Assembly (NCBI GenBank): GCA_038087875.1
Contig: CM075988.1
Coordinates: 16,866,001 to 16,930,000 of the forward strand
From: Malacoraja senta
Lineage: Eukaryota
Length of the DNA: 64,000 nucleotides
Direction of reading: 5' to 3'
Shown here in pieces: positions 1,491 to 61,972 of the stretch. Position numbers and translations under genes: made by a program. How positions within the stretch are numbered: the stretch's first letter is position 1; every line of letters starts with the position of its first letter. The notes beneath the pieces are model-generated. The model saw nothing but the letters and a program-made list of their open reading frames with translations, was not told where the DNA came from and did not search any database.

Positions 1491-2549
1491 GTGTTAAAGA
1501 AGGAACTGCAGATGCTGGAAAATCGAAGGTACACAAAAATGCTGGAGAAACTCAGCGGGTGCAGCAGCATCTATGGAGCGAAGGAAATAGGTAACGTTTC
1601 GGGCCGAAACCCTTCTTCAGACTGATAGGGGGTGGGGAGAAGAAAGGAAAAAAGGAAGGAGGAGCCCGAGGGTTGGGGGAGGGGAGGAGACAACCAGATG
1701 GCTGATGAAGGGGAGGGGACAGCCAGGGCTAGCAGAATTGGGAGAATTCAACGTTCAGGCCACCAGGGTGTAGACTGCCCAAGCGGAATATGAGGTGCAT
1801 TTCCTCCAATTTACGGTGTTGCTCGCTGTGGCCATGGAGGAGACCCAGGACAGAGAGGTCAGATACGGAATGGGAGGGGGAGTTGAAGTGCTGAGCCACC
1901 GGGAGTTCAGGTTGGTTATTGCGGACCGACCGGAGGTGTTCGGCGAAACGATCGCCAAGCCTCCGCTTGGTCTCACCGATGTAGATCAGCTGGCATCTAG
2001 AGCAGCGAATGCAATAGATGAGGTTGGAGGAGATGCAGGTGAACCTCTGTCGCACCTGGAACGACTGCTTGGGTCCTGGAATGGAGTGGAGGGGGGAAGT
2101 GAAGGGACAAGTGTTGCATCTCTTGCGGTTGCAAGGGAAAGTACCAGGGGAGGGGGTGGTATGGGAGGGAAGGGAAGAATTGACAAGGGAGTTACGGAGG
2201 GAGCGGTCTTTGCGGAAGGCAGACATAGGGGGAGATGGGAAGATGTGGCGAGTGGTGGGGTCACGTTGGAGGTGGCGAAACTGACGGAGGATCACTTGTT
2301 GTATGTGACGGCTGGTGGGGTGAAAGGTGAGGACTAGGGGGACTCTGCCTTTGTTGTGAGTGGGGGGATGGGGAGAGAGAGCAGTGTTGCGGGGTATGGC
2401 AGAGACCCTGGTGCGAGCCTCCTTTTTTCCTTTCTTCTCCCCACCCCCTATCAGTCTGAAGAAGGGTTTCGGCCCGAAACGTTACCTATTTCCTTCGCTC
2501 CATAGATGCTGCTGCACCCGCTGAGTTTCTCCAGCATTTTTGTGTACCT
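1491..2549 (-). mobile_element. 5'-truncated Penelope-like retroelement (Neptune-type) with inverted terminal repeat
   Basis: GIY-YIG frame; apparently identical 130-bp inverted repeat 1527-1656/2420-2549; 14-bp TSD ACAAATTAAATCCA at 1477-1490 and 2550-2563. Confidence 0.92.
1729..2421 (-). CDS. C-terminal fragment of PLE polyprotein: thumb/linker, Cys-rich knuckle, GIY-YIG endonuclease (5'-truncated, no true start)
   Basis: Uninterrupted frame EARTRVS...RVPLVLTFHP...CNRKRCNTC...SSNLIYCIRCSRCQLIYIGETKRRLGDRFAEHLRS...VAQHF...EMHLIFRLGSLHPGGLNVEF. Extends 42 codons upstream of the ORF-track start. Confidence 0.9.
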   Translation of the reverse strand, partial: EARTRVSAIPRNTALSPHPPTHNKGRVPLVLTFHPTSRHIQQVILRQFRHLQRDPTTRHIFPSPPMSAFRKDRSLRNSLVNSSLPSHTTPSPGTFPCNRKRCNTCPFTSPLHSIPGPKQSFQVRQRFTCISSNLIYCIRCSRCQLIYIGETKRRLGDRFAEHLRSVRNNQPELPVAQHFNSPSHSVSDLSVLGLLHGHSEQHRKLEEMHLIFRLGSLHPGGLNVEFSQFC

Positions 2550-18251: not shown

Positions 18252-18686
18252 TTACAATGCCCAACCTCCCTCTATCGCTCAGGCCCTGAAGTCCTGGCGA
18301 CTTCCTCATAAAATGTGGGATGTGGGAAAAACTGGTGGAAACCTGGCTTCACGATACAAGGGATGGAGGGATATGGGCCAAATTGGACTAGCTTTGATTG
18401 AGCATCTTGGTCAGCACGGCCAAGTTGATCTGAAGGGCCTGTTTCCGTGTTGTATGACTATATGACTGTAATACAAGTACAATACTGGTGAAAATGAATA
18501 AAACGCGCTCAGGACTGAGAAAAATCAAACAAAAAGAACAAGGTGTTGCCTAATGCTTTCCAAAAATAACCAAACTGCCGTTATAAAAGTCAAAGATTGC
18601 TACAGTTTGATAGACAGGGAACCTTTGCTTAATTACACCTCTTTAAATTATCCCACTGTGGGATGAACAGTGTATATTTGCAGATA

Positions 18687-18865
18687 GACACAAAAAGCTG
18701 GAGTAACTCAGCGGGACAGGCAGCATCTCTGGAGAGAAGGATGGGTGACGTTTCGGGTCGAGACCCTTCTTCAGTCTGACCCTCCTGCCCGTCCCACTGA
18801 GTTTACTTCAGCTTTTTGTGTCTATCTTCGGTTTAAACCAGCATCTGCGGTTCCTTCTTACACAC
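18687..18865. mobile_element. Palindromic PLE-derived mini-element
   Basis: Inverted terminal-repeat copies; TSD ATATTTG(C/T)AGATA at 18674-18686 and 18866-18878. Confidence 0.85.
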
Positions 18866-19282
18866 ATATTTGTAGATAATATCAACCGGACAGAGAACAA
18901 TATTTATTTTGATCCTGAGCCCTGAAAGACCACAGTTGGTTTAAAGAATCAATGTGTTCAATCAAAAAGACTGCCACCACTTCACAGACCGGACAGCTTG
19001 AGTGGAGGAAAAAAGTTAACATTTAAGGTGCTGACCTTTCACCTGTTCTGATGAAAAATTATCGACCTGTTCCCTGCTTGACAGATGTGTTCTGACATAT
19101 CCAGCAATTTTGATTTTTATTTCAGATTTCCAGCATCAGCCAGATTTCACTTTTGAATCATTTGCTGTCAAATTCCGTTTGACAATTTTCACAAGCACTC
19201 ACCTTGGTACAGTGAAGCTCCATTATATTCTGCTGGCCATGCCGTATAAATGTACTGTGATACAAGTTATAGTTACCGAGTC

Positions 19283-19605
19283 TAGTTTGGTTTAGTTTAG
19301 AGATGCAGCGTGTAAACAGGCCCTTCGGCCCTCCGGGTCCGCGCCGACCAGCGTTCCCCGCATATTAACACTGATGTACACACTATAGGGACAATTTTTA
19401 CATTCACCAAGCTAATTAACTTACAAACCTGTACGTCTTTGGAGTGTGGGAGGAAACTGAAGATCTCGGAGAAAAACCCACGCAGTCACGGGGAGAACGT
19501 ACAAACCCCATACAAACAGCACCCGTAGTCGGGATCGAACCCTGGTCTTTAGCGCTGCAAGCGCTGAACAGCAGCAACTCTACCGTTGCGCCACCGTGCC
19601 GCCCT
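19283..19605 (-). mobile_element. V-SINE, full length
   Basis: Reverse-complement head, core and tail. Confidence 0.9.
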
Positions 19606-26402: not shown

Positions 26403-26598
26403 AGAATGGCACGAAAAGCTGGAGTAACTCAGCGGGACAGGCAGCATCTCTGGAGGGAAGGAATGGGTGGCGTTTCGGGTCCAGACCCTTCTTCAGTCAC
26501 CCATTCCTTCTCTCCAGAGATGCTGCCTGTCCCGCTGAGTTACTCCAGCTTTTTGAGTATCTTCGGTTTAAGCCAGAATCTGCAGTTCCTTCCTACGC
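26403..26598. mobile_element. Palindromic PLE-derived mini-element
   Basis: TSD AGCTCAAGATACCCA at 26388-26402 and 26599-26613; inverted arms. Confidence 0.85.
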
Positions 26599-30068: not shown

Positions 30069-30312
30069 AGGTAGTTGAGGCAGGGACTACAGCAGTATTT
30101 AAAGGACACTTGGACAGGTACATGGATAGGAAAGGTTTAGAGGGATATGGGCCAAACGCAGGCAAATGTTCCTAGCTTAGTTAGCATGTTGAGATTGAAG
30201 TATGGTTACAGAGGGCAAAATGTGCTTGAGGGGCTGAATAATCTACTGCTGATGGGGAGGTTTGTTAAAGTTGCACAACATGAAAGGACATCCTGTTGCT
30301 GGTGGTAGATTA

Positions 30313-30481
30313 CAAAGATCCTCTAGCAAGCAAGATAGTGAACTCCTGCTAAACCCAATGGGCTGACGTGTAGTACGCAACCAAGCGTAACGGAGCGGAA
30401 TGTCAGTCTTTTCATCGGCCATTTTAGTAAACCCAACCCTACCCGACTTTGTGGGCTATCTTGCTTGCCATAGGATCTTTG
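30313..30481. mobile_element. MITE with about 26-bp TIRs, possibly hAT
   Basis: CAAAGATCCTCTAGCAAGCAAGATAG...CTATCTTGCTTGCCATAGGATCTTTG; flanks GTAGATTA/GTAAATAA form an imperfect 8-bp repeat. Confidence 0.65.
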
Positions 30482-30539
30482 GTAAATAATGTTAACAGCT
30501 CCATCTTCAATTGATCCAGGGCAGTAATTGGAAGTTGAC

Positions 30540-30853
30540 GGTAGACAAAAATGCTGGAGAAACTCAGCGGGTGCAGCAGCATCTATGGAGCGAAGGAAAT
30601 AGGCAACGTTTCAGGCCGAAACCCTTCTTCAGACTGATGGGGGGGTGGAGGGAAGAAAGGAAAAAAGGAAAAAGGCGGAGGAGGAGCCCGAGGGCTGGGG
30701 GAGGGGAGGAGACAACCAGATGGCTGATGCAGGGGAGGGGACAGCAAGGGCTAGCAGAATTGGGAGAATTCAATGTTCAAGCCCCCAGGATGTAGACTGC
30801 CCAAGCGGAATATGAGGTGCATATGAGGTGTTCGGCGAAACGAACACCTCCGG
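30540..30853 (-). mobile_element. Young truncated PLE insertion (same family as 1491-2549)
   Basis: TSD AATTGGAAGTTGAC at 30526-30539 and 30854-30867; includes the last codons of the GIY-YIG frame. Confidence 0.92.
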
Positions 30854-30993
30854 AATTGGAAGTTGACTATTTTTAAGCTATATGCGCATGTTAATAGCAT
30901 GTTAATGGCAGACTAGTGTAGATGGGGCACGAGTTAGGCCTTGGGGCCTGTTCCCGTTCTGTACCATTCCATGACTCTGCATGGTTAGTTTTG

Positions 30994-32180: not shown

Positions 32181-32396
32181 GTGTCTGTCTGTGTCTGAGT
32201 GTCTGTCTGTGTCTGAGTGTCTGTCTGTGTCTGAGTGTCTGTCTGTGTCTGAGTGTCTGTCTGTGTCTGAGTGTCTGTCTGTGTCTGAGTGTCTGTCTGT
32301 GTCTGAGTGTCTGTCTGTGTCTGAGTGTCTGTCTGTGTCTGAGTGTCTGTCTGTGTCTGAGTGTCTGTCTGTGTCTGAGTGTCTGTCTGTGTCTGA
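32181..32396. repeat. Perfect 18-bp minisatellite (GTGTCTGTCTGTGTCTGA) x12
   Basis: 12 identical units counted. Confidence 0.97.
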
Positions 32397-32466
32397 GTGA
32401 ATACACAAAGATTTAGTACATCCCACAAGATTCCTTTGGTTATACTCAAAGATGGGTTTCTGCTCT

Positions 32467-34020: not shown

Positions 34021-34637
34021 ACCAAAGAATTGGTCAAAAGCTAGATTGTAACTAATTTCTTAAAGAAGAGAAAAAGGCACAAAAAAAAGATGGTATTTAA
34101 AAGTTTAGAATTGCCCTCTATTAACAAGTAAACTTGTTGCTGTCTATGAAACAAATCCCTATATTCAGGGCCTGCCGTGCACTGATCAGTCGATGGATGA
34201 TAATGGTTAGCAAGTATTAGCTCAGTATTTTAAGGTGAGAGGGAAATGATTTAATAGGATCCTGAGGGGCAGCATTTTCACACAGAGGGTGGTGGGTATG
34301 GAACGAGCCAAAGGAGGTAGTTGAGGGAGATACAATAACCACATAAAACATTTAGAAAAGTACATGGATCGGAAAGGTTTAGAGGGATATGGGCCTATTG
34401 CGGGTATATGGGATTATGGGGCATGTTTGTTGGCGTGGAAGAGTTGGGCTGAAGAGCCTGTTTCCGTGCTGTATGACTCTATGACTCCATTGAGTGACTG
34501 CAAGTACTTTATCAATTGTCTGGCAATTCCAATATTTGTAGAATGGCAGGGTGGGTGAATGAGGACAACGATATATGTTGTTGTGTATAGCTGTGGCTAT
34601 TCGAATGTTGTGTATAGCTGTGGCTATTCAAATCTTA

Positions 34638-35130
34638 CTAGCTTAGTTAGCATGTTGAGATTGAAGTATGGTTACAGAGGGCAAAATGTGCTTGAGGGGC
34701 TGAATAATCTACTGCTGTATTTGTGGTGATGGGGAAGTTTGTTAAAGTTGCACAACATGAAAGGACATCCTGTTGCTGGTGGTAGATTACAAAGATCCTC
34801 TAGCAAGCAAGATAGTGAACTCCTGCTAAACCCAATGGGCTGACGTGTAGTACGCAACCAAGCGCAACGGAGCGGAATGTCAACCTTTTCGTCGGCCATT
34901 TTAGTAAACCCGACCAGACCCGACTTTGTGGGTATCTTTGAGGATCTTTGGTAAATATTGTTCACAGCTCCATCTTCAATCTCCAAGGCAGTAATTGGGA
35001 GTTGACTATTTTTAAGCTATATGCGCATGTTGATAGCATGTTAATGGCAGACTAGTGTAGATGGGGCACGAGTCAGGCCTTGGGGCCTGTTCCCGTTCTG
35101 TACCATTCCATGACTCTGCATGGTTAGTTT
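34638..35130 (+). repeat. Local duplication copy B (empty site)
   Basis: Matches 30172-30991 without the PLE; single target AATTGGGAGTTGAC at 34993-35006. Confidence 0.92.
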
Positions 35131-39002: not shown

Positions 39003-39465
39003 TGTCAGTAGAGACAATAATACTCAGATGAAGTGTCATTGGCTTGAGGCGTTAGATCTATTTCTCCCACTGCAGATGCTGTCTGACATGCAGGGTATTT
39101 TCATCAATCTCAACTTTCAGTTTAAGGCACAGCTTTATATGTTGCTTTACTCAAGATTTACTCAACAATAAAAGTTCTTAATAGGCAAAGACTAGAGGTG
39201 ACATTGGGCCCACGTCTTGCATCTGGATGTTTGAAGGAAATCACTTCCAATCATGAGGATCTGAAAGAAATTGTATTTTTGAAAACCTGAACGCAGCATC
39301 CCATATGTACAACCCCACAGTGAAACCTGACACTGCTGGAAGCAGCACGACCCAGTAGCTGGCACCTCGCAGGGAAGAGAAATGAGGAACTGCAGCTGTT
39401 AGTCAATACACAAAATGACACAGAGTAAGTGGAGCAACGCAGCAGGTCAGGCAGCATCTCTGGAC

Positions 39466-39659
39466 AAAAATGCTGGAGAAACTCAGCGGGTGCAGCAGCA
39501 TCTATGGGGCGATGGAAATAGGCAACGTTTCGGGCCGAAACCCTTCTTCAGAAACGTTGCCTATTTCCTTCGCTCCATAGATGCTGCTGCACCCGCTGAG
39601 TTGCTCCAGCATTTTTGTGTACCTTTGATTTTCCAGCATCTGCAGTTCCTTCTTTAACA
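39466..39659. mobile_element. Young palindromic PLE mini-element nested in an older PLE repeat
   Basis: Direct repeat CAGCATCTCTGGACAA at 39452-39467 and 39660-39675; near-perfect inverted arms. Confidence 0.88.
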
Positions 39660-39684
39660 CAGCATCTCTGGACAACATGGATAG

Positions 39685-53805: not shown

Positions 53806-55289
53806 TCAACCAAACCTGCCTACATCCCACCTTGTTCATCCAACAACTGGGCGGCTTATTCATCCCTTTGCCATCTCTACAGTTGGTTACTGATCTTTCA
53901 ATCCCTCAGACTATAAATTACCAGTGGATTCTACATATGCCTGCATACTGTCCCCCATTTTATCCGATTTGCCAACCAACTGAACTGACGTTTACTGGCT
54001 TGCTGCCCCTGGTGTAAATAGTTCCAGATCTGTCTGCAAATCTCTCCATAGGTTTATTTCATGCCCTGCCTGCAACCTCGTCCATCCCAGATCCTATCTC
54101 CTCTTTCGCAAAGCCTTTTCAACCATGCTTTTAGCTGCATTTCCTATTCTCTTAATCTGAAGAAGAGTCCTGACCCGAAACGTCATCTGCCCATTCCCTT
54201 TACAGATGCTGCCTGACCCGTTGAGTTCCTCCAGCACTTTTGTGTTTTCCTCACGGTTCCAGCATCTGTGTCTCCTATTCTCTTTCCTTGTTTTGGTACA
54301 ACCTTATTTCCTCCAGTTAATCACAGAAAGAGGCACGTCACTGCTGGATTTGAAACCAATTAGATTGTTGGAAGCAGCACTTCAATGTCAGACTGCAATG
54401 AAGGGAACAAACAGAAAGCTGCACAAGGCAGGCTGGAGCACATTCAAAACAATAATTTAGGAATATTGAGGTAAATTAAACATGTAGCTCTTCCTGACTC
54501 TTTTGACACCAATCTGTTTAACTGTAAGATCTGCTGTGACATCAGTGAAGATAAAAATCCCTTTTATGTGCTTGGAGTGATTTCAGGGAATGCTGTTAAT
54601 GAAGGTAATCTTGTAATCCCCTTAACACTCTTTAAACTTGCGCAATCAGGGCAATGTAACATACGAGGCATCAGTTCGATTCCCCACACTAATGAAAGGC
54701 ATAGAAGGCCCATTCTCCTTTCTAACAGCCTTCTAATGAGTGTATTAATGGGTGACAATCCACTGTACTGCTCAGCTCCTGCTCCACATATAAGCAGCAT
54801 CAGATCCATTGCAGGGGCATGTATGCTGATATTATTCAACGCTGGGCCTATTACAAAGACTTCTGCTTCAAGGAGTATGATATTTTGACAGGCATCGCAA
54901 GTCTCATTGATTCCTGGTGATCCCTACCCTTCTTTCAGCTGTTTCTTGAAAAGGGAACGTTTTAAAATCATGTTTCAGATTTTCCACCCTTAAATCTGTA
55001 GGCTTGGGATTCTGAAACAGTTTGCAATGTAAAAAAAAATAATTCTCACTGCAGACGTCAAAGCATTCCCACCCGCTCGCCCCCATCCCAGTAGGAAATA
55101 AGGCACCTGCAAGGAAATATTTTCTCAATGTGTTGAAAATACTCAGCCTTGTCTTTCTCTCAGCTGGGGAAGAACGAATTAGCAAATTTATCTACATGCG
55201 AGCACTACAAATCCATAAAAAAAAACAATCGAGGGCTCGGCCAGGCCAGGCCAGGCCTACCACACTTTACAACACAGCAACAGTAGAGG

Positions 55290-56415: not shown

Positions 56416-56614
56416 AATGTGTCGGAAGGAACTGCAGATGCTGGTTTAAACCGAAGGTAAACACAAAATGCTGGAGTAACTCAGTGGGACAGGCAGCATC
56501 TCTGGAGAGAAGGAATGGGTGGCGTTTTTTAAGGGTCTCGACCTGAAACGTCACCCATTCCTTCTCTCCAGAGATGCTGCCTGTCCCACTGAATTGCTCC
56601 AGCATTTTGTGTCT
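56416..56614. mobile_element. Palindromic PLE-derived mini-element
   Basis: Direct repeat ATCACTGGTTCAGCAGG at 56399-56415 and 56615-56631. Confidence 0.88.
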
Positions 56615-56879: not shown

Positions 56880-57651
56880 AACTGAAATTATATGGTTGAA
56901 GACACAAGAAATTGCAGATGCTGGTTTACAAAAAAACAAAACACAAAGTGCTGGGATAACAGCGGGTCAGGCAGTATCTCCAGAGGACATGGATAGGGAC
57001 TAGCGGATCTTCATCAGATTTTAAAAAAAGAAAATGTTGGGAACACTCAGAGAACATCTGCAGAAGGAGAAACAGAGTCAGCATTTTTCAGGGTTAACAC
57101 TAGTTCTGGCAAAATTAATGTTATCCCTATTTCTATTCCACAGATGCTGCCTGAGTGCTTTCACTGTTTTTTTTTGGATTTTCAGTATCTGCAATTATTT
57201 TTTGTTTATTTCCAAATTGTCATTTGAAACGAAACATCTGATTTACTAACATCCTTCAGCAAAGCCAATCTTCCTAATGTGGCTGATATTTGATTTAGGA
57301 CCCACCAATGTGGTGAACTATCTAGTGCTTCAACATTTGTAAGGGGTGGACAATAAACATTTGGAGCTCCAAATTCTGGGAACAAAAAAATAAATAAGTT
57401 TGAAAAATGAAAAGGTACTAAATTTTAAGTATGTTTCAACAGGGTCGACGACTTAGGTCAGATGGAGGAGGTTGCTGTTCATCTGCCTGTTCACCCAGGG
57501 GCAAAGCTGACGGTTTCTCGTTGATGAGGTTCTGAGTCTAAGTGGACATTGAGATGCGTCAGCACTTACCTCCAGCCTGCCTTTGATATAACAAAGATGT
57601 GTTTACCGTGCATGGTCTACATGCCTGAGAGCCAGTGATACCCAATGGAAC

Positions 57652-58110
57652 GTGTAGGAAGGAACTGCAGATGCTGCTTTAAACCGAAGATGGGCACAAA
57701 AAGCTGGAGTAACTCAGCGGCACAGGCAGCATCTCTGGAGAGAAGGAGTGGGTGACGTTTCGGGTTGAGACCCTTCTTCAGACTTCAACTTTTTTTCTGC
57801 AATGTCCGGCCTGTGAAGTGGTGGCAGGATTTTCGATTGAAAACATTGATTCTTTAAACCAACTGTGGTCTTTCAGGGCTCAGGATCAAAATAGATATTG
57901 TTCTCTGTCCGCTTGATATTATCTGCAAATATACGTGTAAGAAGGGACCGCAGATGCTGGTTAAAACCGAAGGTAGACACAAAAAGCTGAAGTAACTCAG
58001 TGGGACGGGCAGAAGGGTCAATTTGAAGAAGGGTCTGACCCGAAACGTCACCCATTCCTTCTCTACAGAGATGCTGCCTGTCCGCTGAGTTACTCCTGCT
58101 TTTTGTGTCT
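57652..58110 (-). mobile_element. Composite PLE insertion carrying an inverted copy of about 18685-19020
   Basis: TSD ATACCCAATGGAAC at 57638-57651 and 58111-58124; PLE terminal repeat at 57652-57783; 57803-58110 is the reverse complement of 18685-18995. Confidence 0.88.
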
Positions 58111-58999
58111 ATACCCAATGGAACTCCTTGCATTCAGCAGTTCAACGTGGTCGAATGATTCATGCAGTCTCCACTTCCAAAAAGACGATTCACAGAGCAT
58201 GAGAGGATGAGACGGGAGGGGAGAGGCTGGCAGGGGCAGGATGGGGTGGTGGTGATCTGTTGAAGCACACTCTCGAATTGGTAAAGAAAATAAGAAGAAG
58301 CCTACATTGCTTGCATTGACCAATGCGCTCCTCCTTTTGTTTACAGCCAGCGATAGCAATCGGTGTGCTGTATCAATTATTTCTGCTACATTAGTGCCTT
58401 TATCAAAAACCACAGTAGCTGGAGGCTCTTCAAGTGTAATAGCATCTCCAGACAATATCAGAAAAATGTCACATCCAATAAAACATTATTACTGCGATCC
58501 TTGACGGCATCTGACGCAGATTTCCACAATTGTCACGAAACAAGCCGATCTTCTGTCTCAACAATTCACATCAGACCATCAAGCTGCATCAAGTAACTTC
58601 ACATTTGAACTCATATTCTCTCTAATTTCACGGATCAATAAGAAATCCAGACATATAAATACATATATTCTCCTTTTGACTTAATTCCACTCATCGCCCT
58701 CAAACATCACAAAGAAACTAATTTACTGAACAATATCTCCGACTTACCGAGAGGAATAAAAGGAGATAAATAAATAAACGGCGTTTTTTTAATGTCTCAA
58801 GACGGGAGGAGAGAGTCCTATTCATGCCAATTCAATCATATCGTCGTCAAGTAAAAAAGAAAGAGAAATCCACTCGTGGTCACTTAAGCAAAAAGCAATA
58901 AAGGTTCAGCACAAAAATCTGCAATGGTGGGAGTCTCATCCCAATGTGAGCAGAGGCGAGAGGTGGATACACTCACAACACTAAGAGTTGTTGGAATTG

Positions 59000-61668: not shown

Positions 61669-61972
61669 CACTCTGTACCTTTCTGTACTCTCCCCAATTT
61701 AGCCACATGGTCACTATAGCAGGGTGACCAGAACTACACACAATTATCCTGGTGCAGACTCACCAACGCCATGTGCAGCTGTAATTTAACATGCCCAACT
61801 CTTGTATTCACTGCTAATCAAAGCATGCCAAATATCTCCTTGACCACCTTGACCACTAGTGTTGTCAGTGTCAGGAAACTACGTCGTATTCTCTTAAAGT
61901 CACCCATCCATCTTTTTTACCAGAGATGCTGCCTGACACATTGCATTACTCCAGCACTTGTGTCTATCATAA

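What the first reader, a model, noticed from the sequence alone, without database searches (positions are those of the whole stretch)
57638..58124. PLE insertion appears to have captured about 330 bp of DNA from 39 kb away in the same locus
Seen: one 14-bp TSD encloses a PLE terminal repeat (57652-57783) joined to an inverted, slightly diverged copy of 18685-18995, with weaker similarity out to about 19020. The copied block comprises a palindromic mini-PLE with a distinctive junction, its right-hand TSD, and about 120-140 bp of non-repeat-looking flank. At 18.7 kb the mini-PLE keeps both TSDs, so that site is the likely donor. Inference: a PLE reverse transcriptase began on a terminal-repeat RNA and switched template to a plus-strand transcript (or DNA) of the nearby locus. 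That would be PLE-mediated local sequence shuffling in a vertebrate.
Basis: partly seen in the sequence, partly recalled or inferred. Interest (0 to 1): 0.75.

Follow-up and report, generated by a model that had tools for sequence, protein, structure and literature searches.

The report
Penelope insertion that copied neighbouring DNA
A small jumping-gene insertion contains a real, old copy of about 330 bases taken from a sister insertion 39,000 bases away, most likely because the two shared an end sequence; such capture is known in other animals and for other retroelements, so this is a neat single case rather than a new process.

Summary
A perfect 14-bp TSD encloses a tailed Penelope-like terminal repeat (57652-57784) and an inverted copy of 18684-18995 (92.7%, weakly to 19017): donor mini-element, its right TSD and about 140 bp of flank. 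Five private variants and the TSD copy fix 18.7 kb as donor. In public runs only one contig per run lies on the flank, so it is not a high-copy repeat; a relative's contig carries the recipient's letters, which argues against misassembly. All eight TSD-flanked two-arm insertions here end in one tailed and one tail-less arm, so 58112 is an ordinary insertion end. The cargo continues from that arm in register with the donor's matching arm. Best reading: the tail-less end paired with the donor's near-identical arm, copied on through about 240 bp (template: donor minus strand, probably DNA) and was blunt-joined to the tailed arm, during insertion or in later repair. A random jump lands so placed in only 3-7% of sites. 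No transcript or empty site was found. Capture between Penelope repeats is published for a rotifer, templated copying for L1: a new variant, one non-coding event.

The parts
57638..57651 (.). Recipient left TSD (14 bp)
   Evidence: identical to 58111-58124
57652..57784 (-). Tailed pLTR arm of the recipient, from the tail end to the 5' edge of the hammerhead motif; not copied from the donor's tailed arm
   Evidence: lacks the donor's 5 private variants, 6 of 133 differences from the majority of local arms; hammerhead-like core at 57781 on -
57785..57786 (.). Closing junction, 0-2 untemplated bases, no microhomology
57787..57802 (-). Far end of copied flank (donor 18996-19017), with short deletions
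   Evidence: 5 of 5000 random matches
57803..57919 (-). Copied unique flank (donor 18879-18995), 7 substitutions
   Evidence: one contig per run in 3 of 4 runs
57920..57934 (-). Copy of the donor's right TSD in its unmutated state
   Evidence: 15 of 15 to donor left TSD, 12 of 15 to donor right TSD
57935..58012 (-). Copy of the donor's tailed arm
   Evidence: shares all 5 private variants of 18785-18863
58013..58023 (-). Copy of the donor's arm-to-arm junction
58024..58112 (+). Tail-less pLTR arm: ordinary second insertion end and the homology shared with the donor's tail-less arm
   Evidence: 0 private variants shared with donor arm
58111..58124 (.). Recipient right TSD (first 2 bases also fit the arm end)
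18672..18686 (.). Donor left TSD (15 bp)
18682..18777 (-). Donor tail-less arm, the arm closest to the local majority sequence (2 of 97 differences)
   Evidence: hammerhead-like core at 18774 on -
18778..18784 (.). Donor arm-to-arm junction
18785..18863 (+). Donor tailed arm with 5 private variants
18864..18878 (.). Donor right TSD (3 changes after the copy was made)
18879..19017 (+). Unique flank that was copied
1491..2549 (-). Related Penelope-like insertion (about 80% alike arms) with 14-bp TSD and the C-terminal GIY-YIG part of the ORF; identifies the repeat family

Best explanation
An ordinary two-ended Penelope-like insertion went astray at one end. Shown: this family inserts with 12-16 bp TSDs and two inverted arms, one starting at the tail and one about 35-45 bp inside it. 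Inferred from PMC11167929 (the enzyme nicks and extends both strands and starts at two adjacent RNA sites): each nick primes one arm and the arms are then joined. Shown: at 57.7-58.1 kb the tail-less arm continues, in register, into the donor's junction, tailed arm, TSD and flank. Inferred: the nascent tail-less strand (3' end pointing into the insertion) paired with the then essentially identical tail-less arm of the young sister insertion 39 kb away, was extended about 240 nt along the donor's minus strand (DNA, SDSA-like, by a host polymerase or the element's own RT; a minus-strand nascent RNA is not excluded), was released near 19017-19019 and was end-joined without homology to the tailed arm. 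The donor stayed intact and the TSD formed normally. Proximity explains why a neighbour was used among very many copies.
For: 8 of the 23 inward-facing arm pairs examined have a 12-16 bp TSD-like repeat at their ends; all 8 have one tailed and one tail-less arm, and 6 have middles of at most 9 bp, so joining needs no homology and 58112 is a standard end. One end of the duplication lies wholly within 95 bp of homology, the other has none. A homology-blind jump would land within 350 nt of a suitably oriented arm at 2.6% (arms >=84% alike) to 7.2% (all arms) of sites. The donor's tail-less arm is the closest of 46 arm hits to the local majority sequence, and no pre-copy change is seen in 91 bp of arm plus the TSDs (95% upper bound 2.4%), so homology was near perfect. 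Changes on the recipient side of the copied part (12 of 310) do not differ from those of its own tailed arm (6 of 133; p=0.79): no detectable lag after insertion. Precedent: L1 cDNA pairing with nearby homologous DNA, akin to SDSA (10.1101/2024.08.27.596794, passage); L1 cDNA recombination promoted by 50-150 bp of homology and reduced by mismatches (PMC13526784, passages).
Against: One event only; the final structure is also produced by the rivals, and the 3-7% figure is a likelihood argument that ignores any tendency of the enzyme to bind transcripts that carry its repeat. The lag test is weak (95% intervals 1.7-9.6% and 2.0-6.7%), so later repair is not excluded. The tail-less arm shares no private variant with the donor (0 of 91 against 5 of 78 in the tailed arm, p=0.02), so the switch point cannot be placed. 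L1 templated insertions usually come from within 15 bp of the site, not 39 kb. A blunt join at 57785 is equally what an RT template jump would leave (established knowledge, recalled). Site 57915 (same letter in runs X10 and X5, a different letter in both window copies) does not fit the simple history without one repeated change. The two-nick model is extrapolated from a lizard element in vitro.
Confidence: 0.45

Rival explanations
1. Later repair. A plain palindromic mini-element inserted first; its hairpin centre broke later, the right-hand end invaded the donor's homologous arm, copied 240 bp and was rejoined (one-ended SDSA / ectopic gene conversion). The element's enzyme plays no part in the capture.
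For: Same geometry as the best explanation. Plain two-arm joints are common among contigs of the family (57784 to 58036-58047). The two outer arms pair over about 90 bp as single-stranded DNA. A second, about 500-bp local duplication not bounded by these repeats lies in the window (30163-30991 against 34629-35130), so local copying occurs here without them.
Against: No detectable lag between insertion and capture; donor TSD still unmutated when copied; the tailed arm ends cleanly at the family's usual stopping point rather than being resected.
Confidence: 0.22
2. First reader's model. RT copied the tailed repeat RNA, jumped without homology to a plus-strand transcript (or DNA) near 19017, ran back through flank and mini-element, and the product paired with the tail-less strand primed at the other nick.
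For: Gives the same final structure; the join at 57785 is blunt; L1 insertions made from two RNAs in the same orientation are reported (PMC11702581, passage); template jumps were proposed for rotifer Penelope (PMC3846280).
Against: Needs a chance landing beside a correctly oriented, same-subfamily arm (2.6-7.2% of sites). No host gene was identified to supply a plus-strand RNA.
Confidence: 0.16
3. Spliced chimeric RNA. A transcript starting in the donor mini-element was spliced from about 19027 into the acceptor-like site at the 5' edge of the hammerhead of a downstream element, and this RNA was reverse-transcribed in one run.
For: Body-bearing copies show a pyrimidine tract and AG at exactly the point where the tailed arm stops (read); the Drosophila virilis Penelope intron ends at the 5' end of helix I (PMC4209133, passage). 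It would explain proximity and the presence of the donor element.
Against: The only fitting GT is weak and needs an extra 6-7 base deletion at the junction, whereas simple joining needs one substitution; no downstream sense-oriented full tailed copy with acceptor was seen among the 46 arm hits.
Confidence: 0.07
4. Not a capture: the block is a composite repeat with its own family, or an assembly artefact.
For: Only one copy of the recipient's middle has been seen, in the window itself; no whole genome was available to count copies.
Against: One contig per run on the flank against summed depths of 1e5-1e7 on the arms. The X2 contig has exactly the 11 differences that the window's donor predicts and its length projects to 19319, just inside the next repeat at 19283. 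The copies differ mainly by substitutions, and run X5 shows the recipient's letter at 57834, 57842, 57894 and 57912. Left junction is bridged to 57673 in X1 and X2, the right one from 58084 in X1.
Confidence: 0.05

Closest known systems
pLTR-bounded host DNA capture by Adineta vaga Penelope (PMC3846280; parts 2-4 of 5 read)
   Same: Non-element DNA between Penelope terminal repeats inside one TSD; the authors also report non-coding sequences captured between solo pLTRs, and inverted pLTR pairs with palindromic junctions.
   Different: There a multi-kb gene of a 50-copy family with unknown donor and a proven empty allele; here about 140 bp of unique flank plus a sister element, donor identified 39 kb away in cis, homology at one end, no empty site shown, vertebrate-type host (recalled, not tested).
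L1 templated insertions and cDNA recombination (10.1101/2024.08.27.596794, PMC11702581, PMC13526784; passages only)
   Same: Genomic DNA under about 250 bp copied into a TSD-flanked retro-insertion; proposed pairing of nascent cDNA with nearby homologous DNA, akin to SDSA; twin priming from both nicks.
   Different: Different enzyme class; L1 templates mostly lie within 15 bp of the site; no poly(A); here both primers start at fixed sites of the terminal repeat.
Poseidon of Anolis carolinensis, PAc (PMC11167929; main text read)
   Same: Tail defined by two RT start sites; both strands nicked and extended; hammerhead motif in the pLTR; matches the tailed plus tail-less ends seen here.
   Different: In vitro work, no capture of flanking DNA described in the parts read; clade of the present element (Poseidon or Neptune) not tested.
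L1 3' transduction (PMC6431247, passage)
   Same: Copies an element together with DNA downstream of its 3' end.
   Different: Transduced DNA ends in poly(A) at the insertion end; here the flank is internal and is capped by a second, independently derived repeat.

Membership tests
EN+ Penelope-like element | C-terminal GIY-YIG endonuclease next to the terminal repeat | tested here: met
   Related insertion 1491-2549: Pfam GIY-YIG E=2.2e-4, 21.9 bits, just under the 22.6 cut-off; atlas hits 0.95-0.97 to GIY-YIG clusters; ORF read. It belongs to a sister subfamily (arms about 80% alike), not to the recipient itself.
EN+ Penelope-like element | Telomerase-like RT upstream of the endonuclease in one ORF | not testable with these tools
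   No RT part of this family lies in the window and no genome is held.
EN+ Penelope-like element | pLTR with minimal hammerhead motif | tested here: met
   12 cores found by my pattern scan, including 57781 and 18774; architecture as in PMC4209133 (passages). Rfam at gathering score found 0. Cleavage not tested.
EN+ Penelope-like element | Optional 30-45 bp tail; inverted pLTR pairs; TSD | tested here: met
   Arm starts cluster at positions 1-13 and 31-56 of the 133-bp arm; 8 TSD-flanked tailed plus tail-less pairs.
EN+ Penelope-like element | Placement in Penelope/Poseidon or Neptune clade by RT tree | not tested
   No RT sequence available.
pLTR-mediated host DNA capture | Non-element DNA between pLTRs inside one TSD | tested here: met
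pLTR-mediated host DNA capture | Cargo is low-copy with an identifiable donor | tested here: met
   genome-wide count not possible
pLTR-mediated host DNA capture | Empty allele or ortholog with one copy of the TSD | tested here: inconclusive
   No contig joining 57651 to 58125 among the 15 joints shown of 1889.
pLTR-mediated host DNA capture | Capture made by the element's own machinery at insertion time | tested here: inconclusive
   No detectable lag, wide intervals.
L1-type 3' transduction | Transduced flank ends in poly(A) at the insertion's 3' end | tested here: not met
   Flank is internal and capped by a pLTR arm; the 7-A run is present (6 A) in the donor DNA.

The most novel reading that the evidence does not exclude
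Two-ended Penelope integration routinely lets one nascent end invade a neighbouring copy of the same terminal repeat and copy its flank. In genomes crowded with these repeats this would be a steady, homology-guided source of short local duplications, and the set of donor-recipient pairs would reveal both the unsolved second half of the Penelope integration cycle and germline chromatin proximity.
Probability: 0.3. Interest if true: 0.6.

Novelty: new variant of a known kind. Interest (0 to 1): 0.33.

Why it matters
How Penelope-like elements finish integration is unresolved (PMC11167929 says the later steps are yet to be validated). This insertion keeps donor, both TSD pairs and both junctions readable, and turns the question into a countable one: do captured pieces begin in homology with an arm, on which side, at what distance, and on which strand. 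By itself it is one old event of about 140 bp of non-coding DNA with no sign of function (1 of 8 TSD-flanked two-arm insertions in this window).

Tried and rejected
Whole-genome count of the flank: no genome held. Rfam at gathering score: 0 matches in the window. Host gene and transcribed strand: 145 ORFs (from the 170 low-repeat ORFs of 60 aa or more listed, out of 732 of 45 aa or more) scanned against Pfam gave only GIY-YIG, a LINE-type RT fragment and weak hits of E 0.005-0.04; PDB searches gave nothing credible; homolog search with 54567-54923(-) gave 0 of 105 candidates; the profile-free search with 58093-58485(-) gave one weak hit, a repetitive acidic protein that I dismissed; a crude splice-site scan gave 10 candidates, none forming a gene. 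Expression: no RNA holder listed; not evidence either way. Recipient-specific middle: in 4 of 4 runs laid (4 of the 24 listed) no contig with the recipient's version of 57787-57934 in the recipient's context was seen; X1 had no cover there at all, X2 and X10 showed only the donor version, X5 a contig that runs on in what projects to the donor context; X2 and X10 were read to 88-90%, contigs drop variants and a filter removes records, so this hole proves nothing, but the middle remains unconfirmed by independent reads. Empty site: none among the joints shown; the X10 left-flank contig ends 23 unaligned letters past 57650, the same distance at which X1 and X2 end inside the repeat, and an X5 contig begins at 58105; both hint that the insertion is shared but the letters were not shown. 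Reverse direction (57.7 kb as donor): rejected, only 18.7 kb has both 15-bp TSDs. Staggered-break inversion of the 39-kb interval: rejected by reasoning, it does not give a direct 14-bp repeat around the recipient. Direct priming on a minus-strand read-through RNA of the donor: folded into the best explanation as a minor form, because PAc needs RNA 3' of its start sites, which the donor arm lacks. Other cargo-bearing insertions: none among 23 arm pairs or 46 arms searched for an exact 12-bp partner within 2.5 kb. Earlier scan findings: 0 in 3 look-ups.

Full report
Observation. The recipient spans 57652-58112 between two identical 14-mers, 57638-57651 and 58111-58124, the only two occurrences in the window. 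Its right 310 bp are an inverted copy of 18684-18995 at 92.7%, with 19 substitutions and 4 one-base gaps; a weaker match runs on to 19017 (5 of 5000 random 30-mers as good). The non-repeat flank has one significant partner in the window.

What the repeat is. The 133-bp arm has 46 hits in the window. A sister-subfamily insertion at 1491-2549 has a 14-bp TSD, inverted arms and an ORF fragment with a GIY-YIG domain (Pfam E=2.2e-4, just under cut-off; atlas 0.95-0.97; translation). My pattern scan found 12 minimal hammerhead-like cores of the kind described in PMC4209133 (passages); Rfam found none at gathering score. Arms begin either at the tail or about 35-45 bp inside it, the signature that PMC11167929 (abstract, main text and start of methods read) traces to two RT start sites, with both DNA strands nicked and extended. 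So this is a Penelope-like terminal repeat; the RT and the clade could not be tested. That the host is a cartilaginous fish and that the other common repeat is an HE1-type SINE is recalled, not tested.

Direction and age. The donor's tailed arm has 5 variants, all 5 shared by the cargo copy and absent from the recipient's own tailed arm: the cargo descends from 18.7 kb and the outer tailed arm does not. The cargo's copy of the right TSD equals the donor's left TSD at 15 of 15, while the donor's own right TSD is now 12 of 15: the donor was young when copied (upper bound 2.4% divergence). Changes on the recipient side of the copy (12 of 310, my polarisation) and in its own tailed arm (6 of 133) do not differ (p=0.79), but intervals are wide.

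Outside data. No genome is held. Of 24 runs listed I laid 4, all contigs. On the arms the summed depth is 1e5-1e7 (114,000-186,000 records laid per run); on the flank a single contig lies in X2, X10 and X5 and none in X1. Summed depth is no copy number, but a high-copy flank at 85% likeness would have shown many contigs. The X2 contig has 11 differences over 57803-57961, exactly the number the window's donor predicts, and projects to end at 19319, just inside the next repeat at 19283: it is the donor. X10 shares the donor letters at 57834, 57842, 57894 and 57912; X5 shows the recipient letters there, and its contig has 5 differences where full donor letters would give 6. The recipient therefore preserves letters found in another organism, which an assembly error would not do; the tool warns that some differences were not counted. 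Site 57915 does not fit without one repeated change. The left junction is covered to 57673 in X1 and X2 (22 letters beyond the TSD), the right from 58084 in X1 (27 letters); both fall short of the tool's 31-letter bridging rule. The recipient's own middle was not seen in any run and no empty site was seen; both are open (see Tried and rejected).

Mechanism. Of 23 inward-facing arm pairs, 8 have a 12-16 bp TSD-like repeat at their ends; all 8 pair a tailed with a tail-less arm; 6 have middles of at most 9 bp, one holds element body, one is the recipient. Thus 58112 is where any insertion of this family would end, and what needs explaining is the 239-bp middle. It continues from the tail-less arm exactly as in the donor and stops at a blunt join with the tailed arm. 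Homology at the start and none at the end is the mark of strand invasion and extension: the new strand reads donor plus-strand sequence from about 18777 to 19017, on the donor's minus strand. I put homology-led copying at about 0.67 in all: 0.45 at insertion, 0.22 as later repair of a broken palindrome; the RNA jump 0.16; a spliced chimeric RNA 0.07; artefact or composite repeat 0.05. Whether the template was DNA or RNA, and which polymerase acted, is inferred, not shown; no host gene or transcript was found.

What is known. PMC3846280 (parts 2-4 of 5 read) reports a gene and non-coding sequences captured between Penelope pLTRs with TSDs in a rotifer, with an empty allele; PMC6431247 (passages) cites it as PLE transduction. 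For L1, 10.1101/2024.08.27.596794 (passages) reports 22 templated insertions, mostly under 250 bp and within 15 bp of the site, and cites the SDSA-like model; PMC11702581 (passages) reports two-RNA and genomic templated insertions; PMC13526784 (passages) shows homology-dependent cDNA recombination, including two events with endogenous copies. 10.64898/2026.07.22.740005 (passages) links vertebrate retrozymes to pLTRs; no capture appeared in the passages seen. Six searches of the open library listed no paper whose title or abstract start describes local capture by a vertebrate PLE; subscription journals are not covered, and no supplements were read (the L1 preprint's Supplementary Fig. 4d and the rotifer inventory table could bear on donor distances).

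Verdict. Real, well preserved and correctly described; a new variant of a known kind. Its value is as a template for a genome-wide test of how Penelope ends are resolved. Interest 0.33.

Noticed in passing
window 30163-30991 and 34629-35130: A second local duplication, about 500 bp, direct, 4.5 kb apart, about 96-97% alike, not bounded by Penelope repeats. One copy later received a single-arm Penelope insertion (about 30541-30853) with a 14-bp TSD, so the other copy is its empty site.
   Followed up: partly
window 1623, 2453, 29941, 30635, 47056, 49469, 59418 (arm position 133): In 7 of the 8 copies that run on into element body, the sense strand has a pyrimidine tract and AG right at the 5' edge of the hammerhead, like a splice acceptor; many short copies stop at arm positions 128-133. 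The D. virilis Penelope intron ends at the same landmark (PMC4209133).
   Followed up: partly
window 58220-58343: A second contig matches this stretch in X10 and X5 (and part of it in X1 and X2), so a paralogous copy lies elsewhere; it has no partner inside the window.
   Followed up: partly
window 58199-58650: Right flank differs from runs X10 and X5 by about 3% against about 7% for the left flank in X10, a hint of a conserved element; no protein match found.
   Followed up: partly
window 39452-39675: A two-arm mini-element of the sister subfamily inserted inside an older arm, with a 16-bp TSD taken from that arm.
   Followed up: no
window 26496-26596, 39551-39652, 56419-56527, 61896-61968: Several arms stop at arm positions 101-110, close to the predicted hammerhead cleavage site.
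   Followed up: no
window 18048-18146/63769-63867, 27427-27581/59899-60049, 41875-41980/42811-42916, 42028-42137/55612-55720: Further two-copy matches of 100-150 bp at 74-84%, probably low-copy or old repeats.
   Followed up: no
window 32181-32399: Perfect 54-bp tandem repeat, about four units.
   Followed up: no
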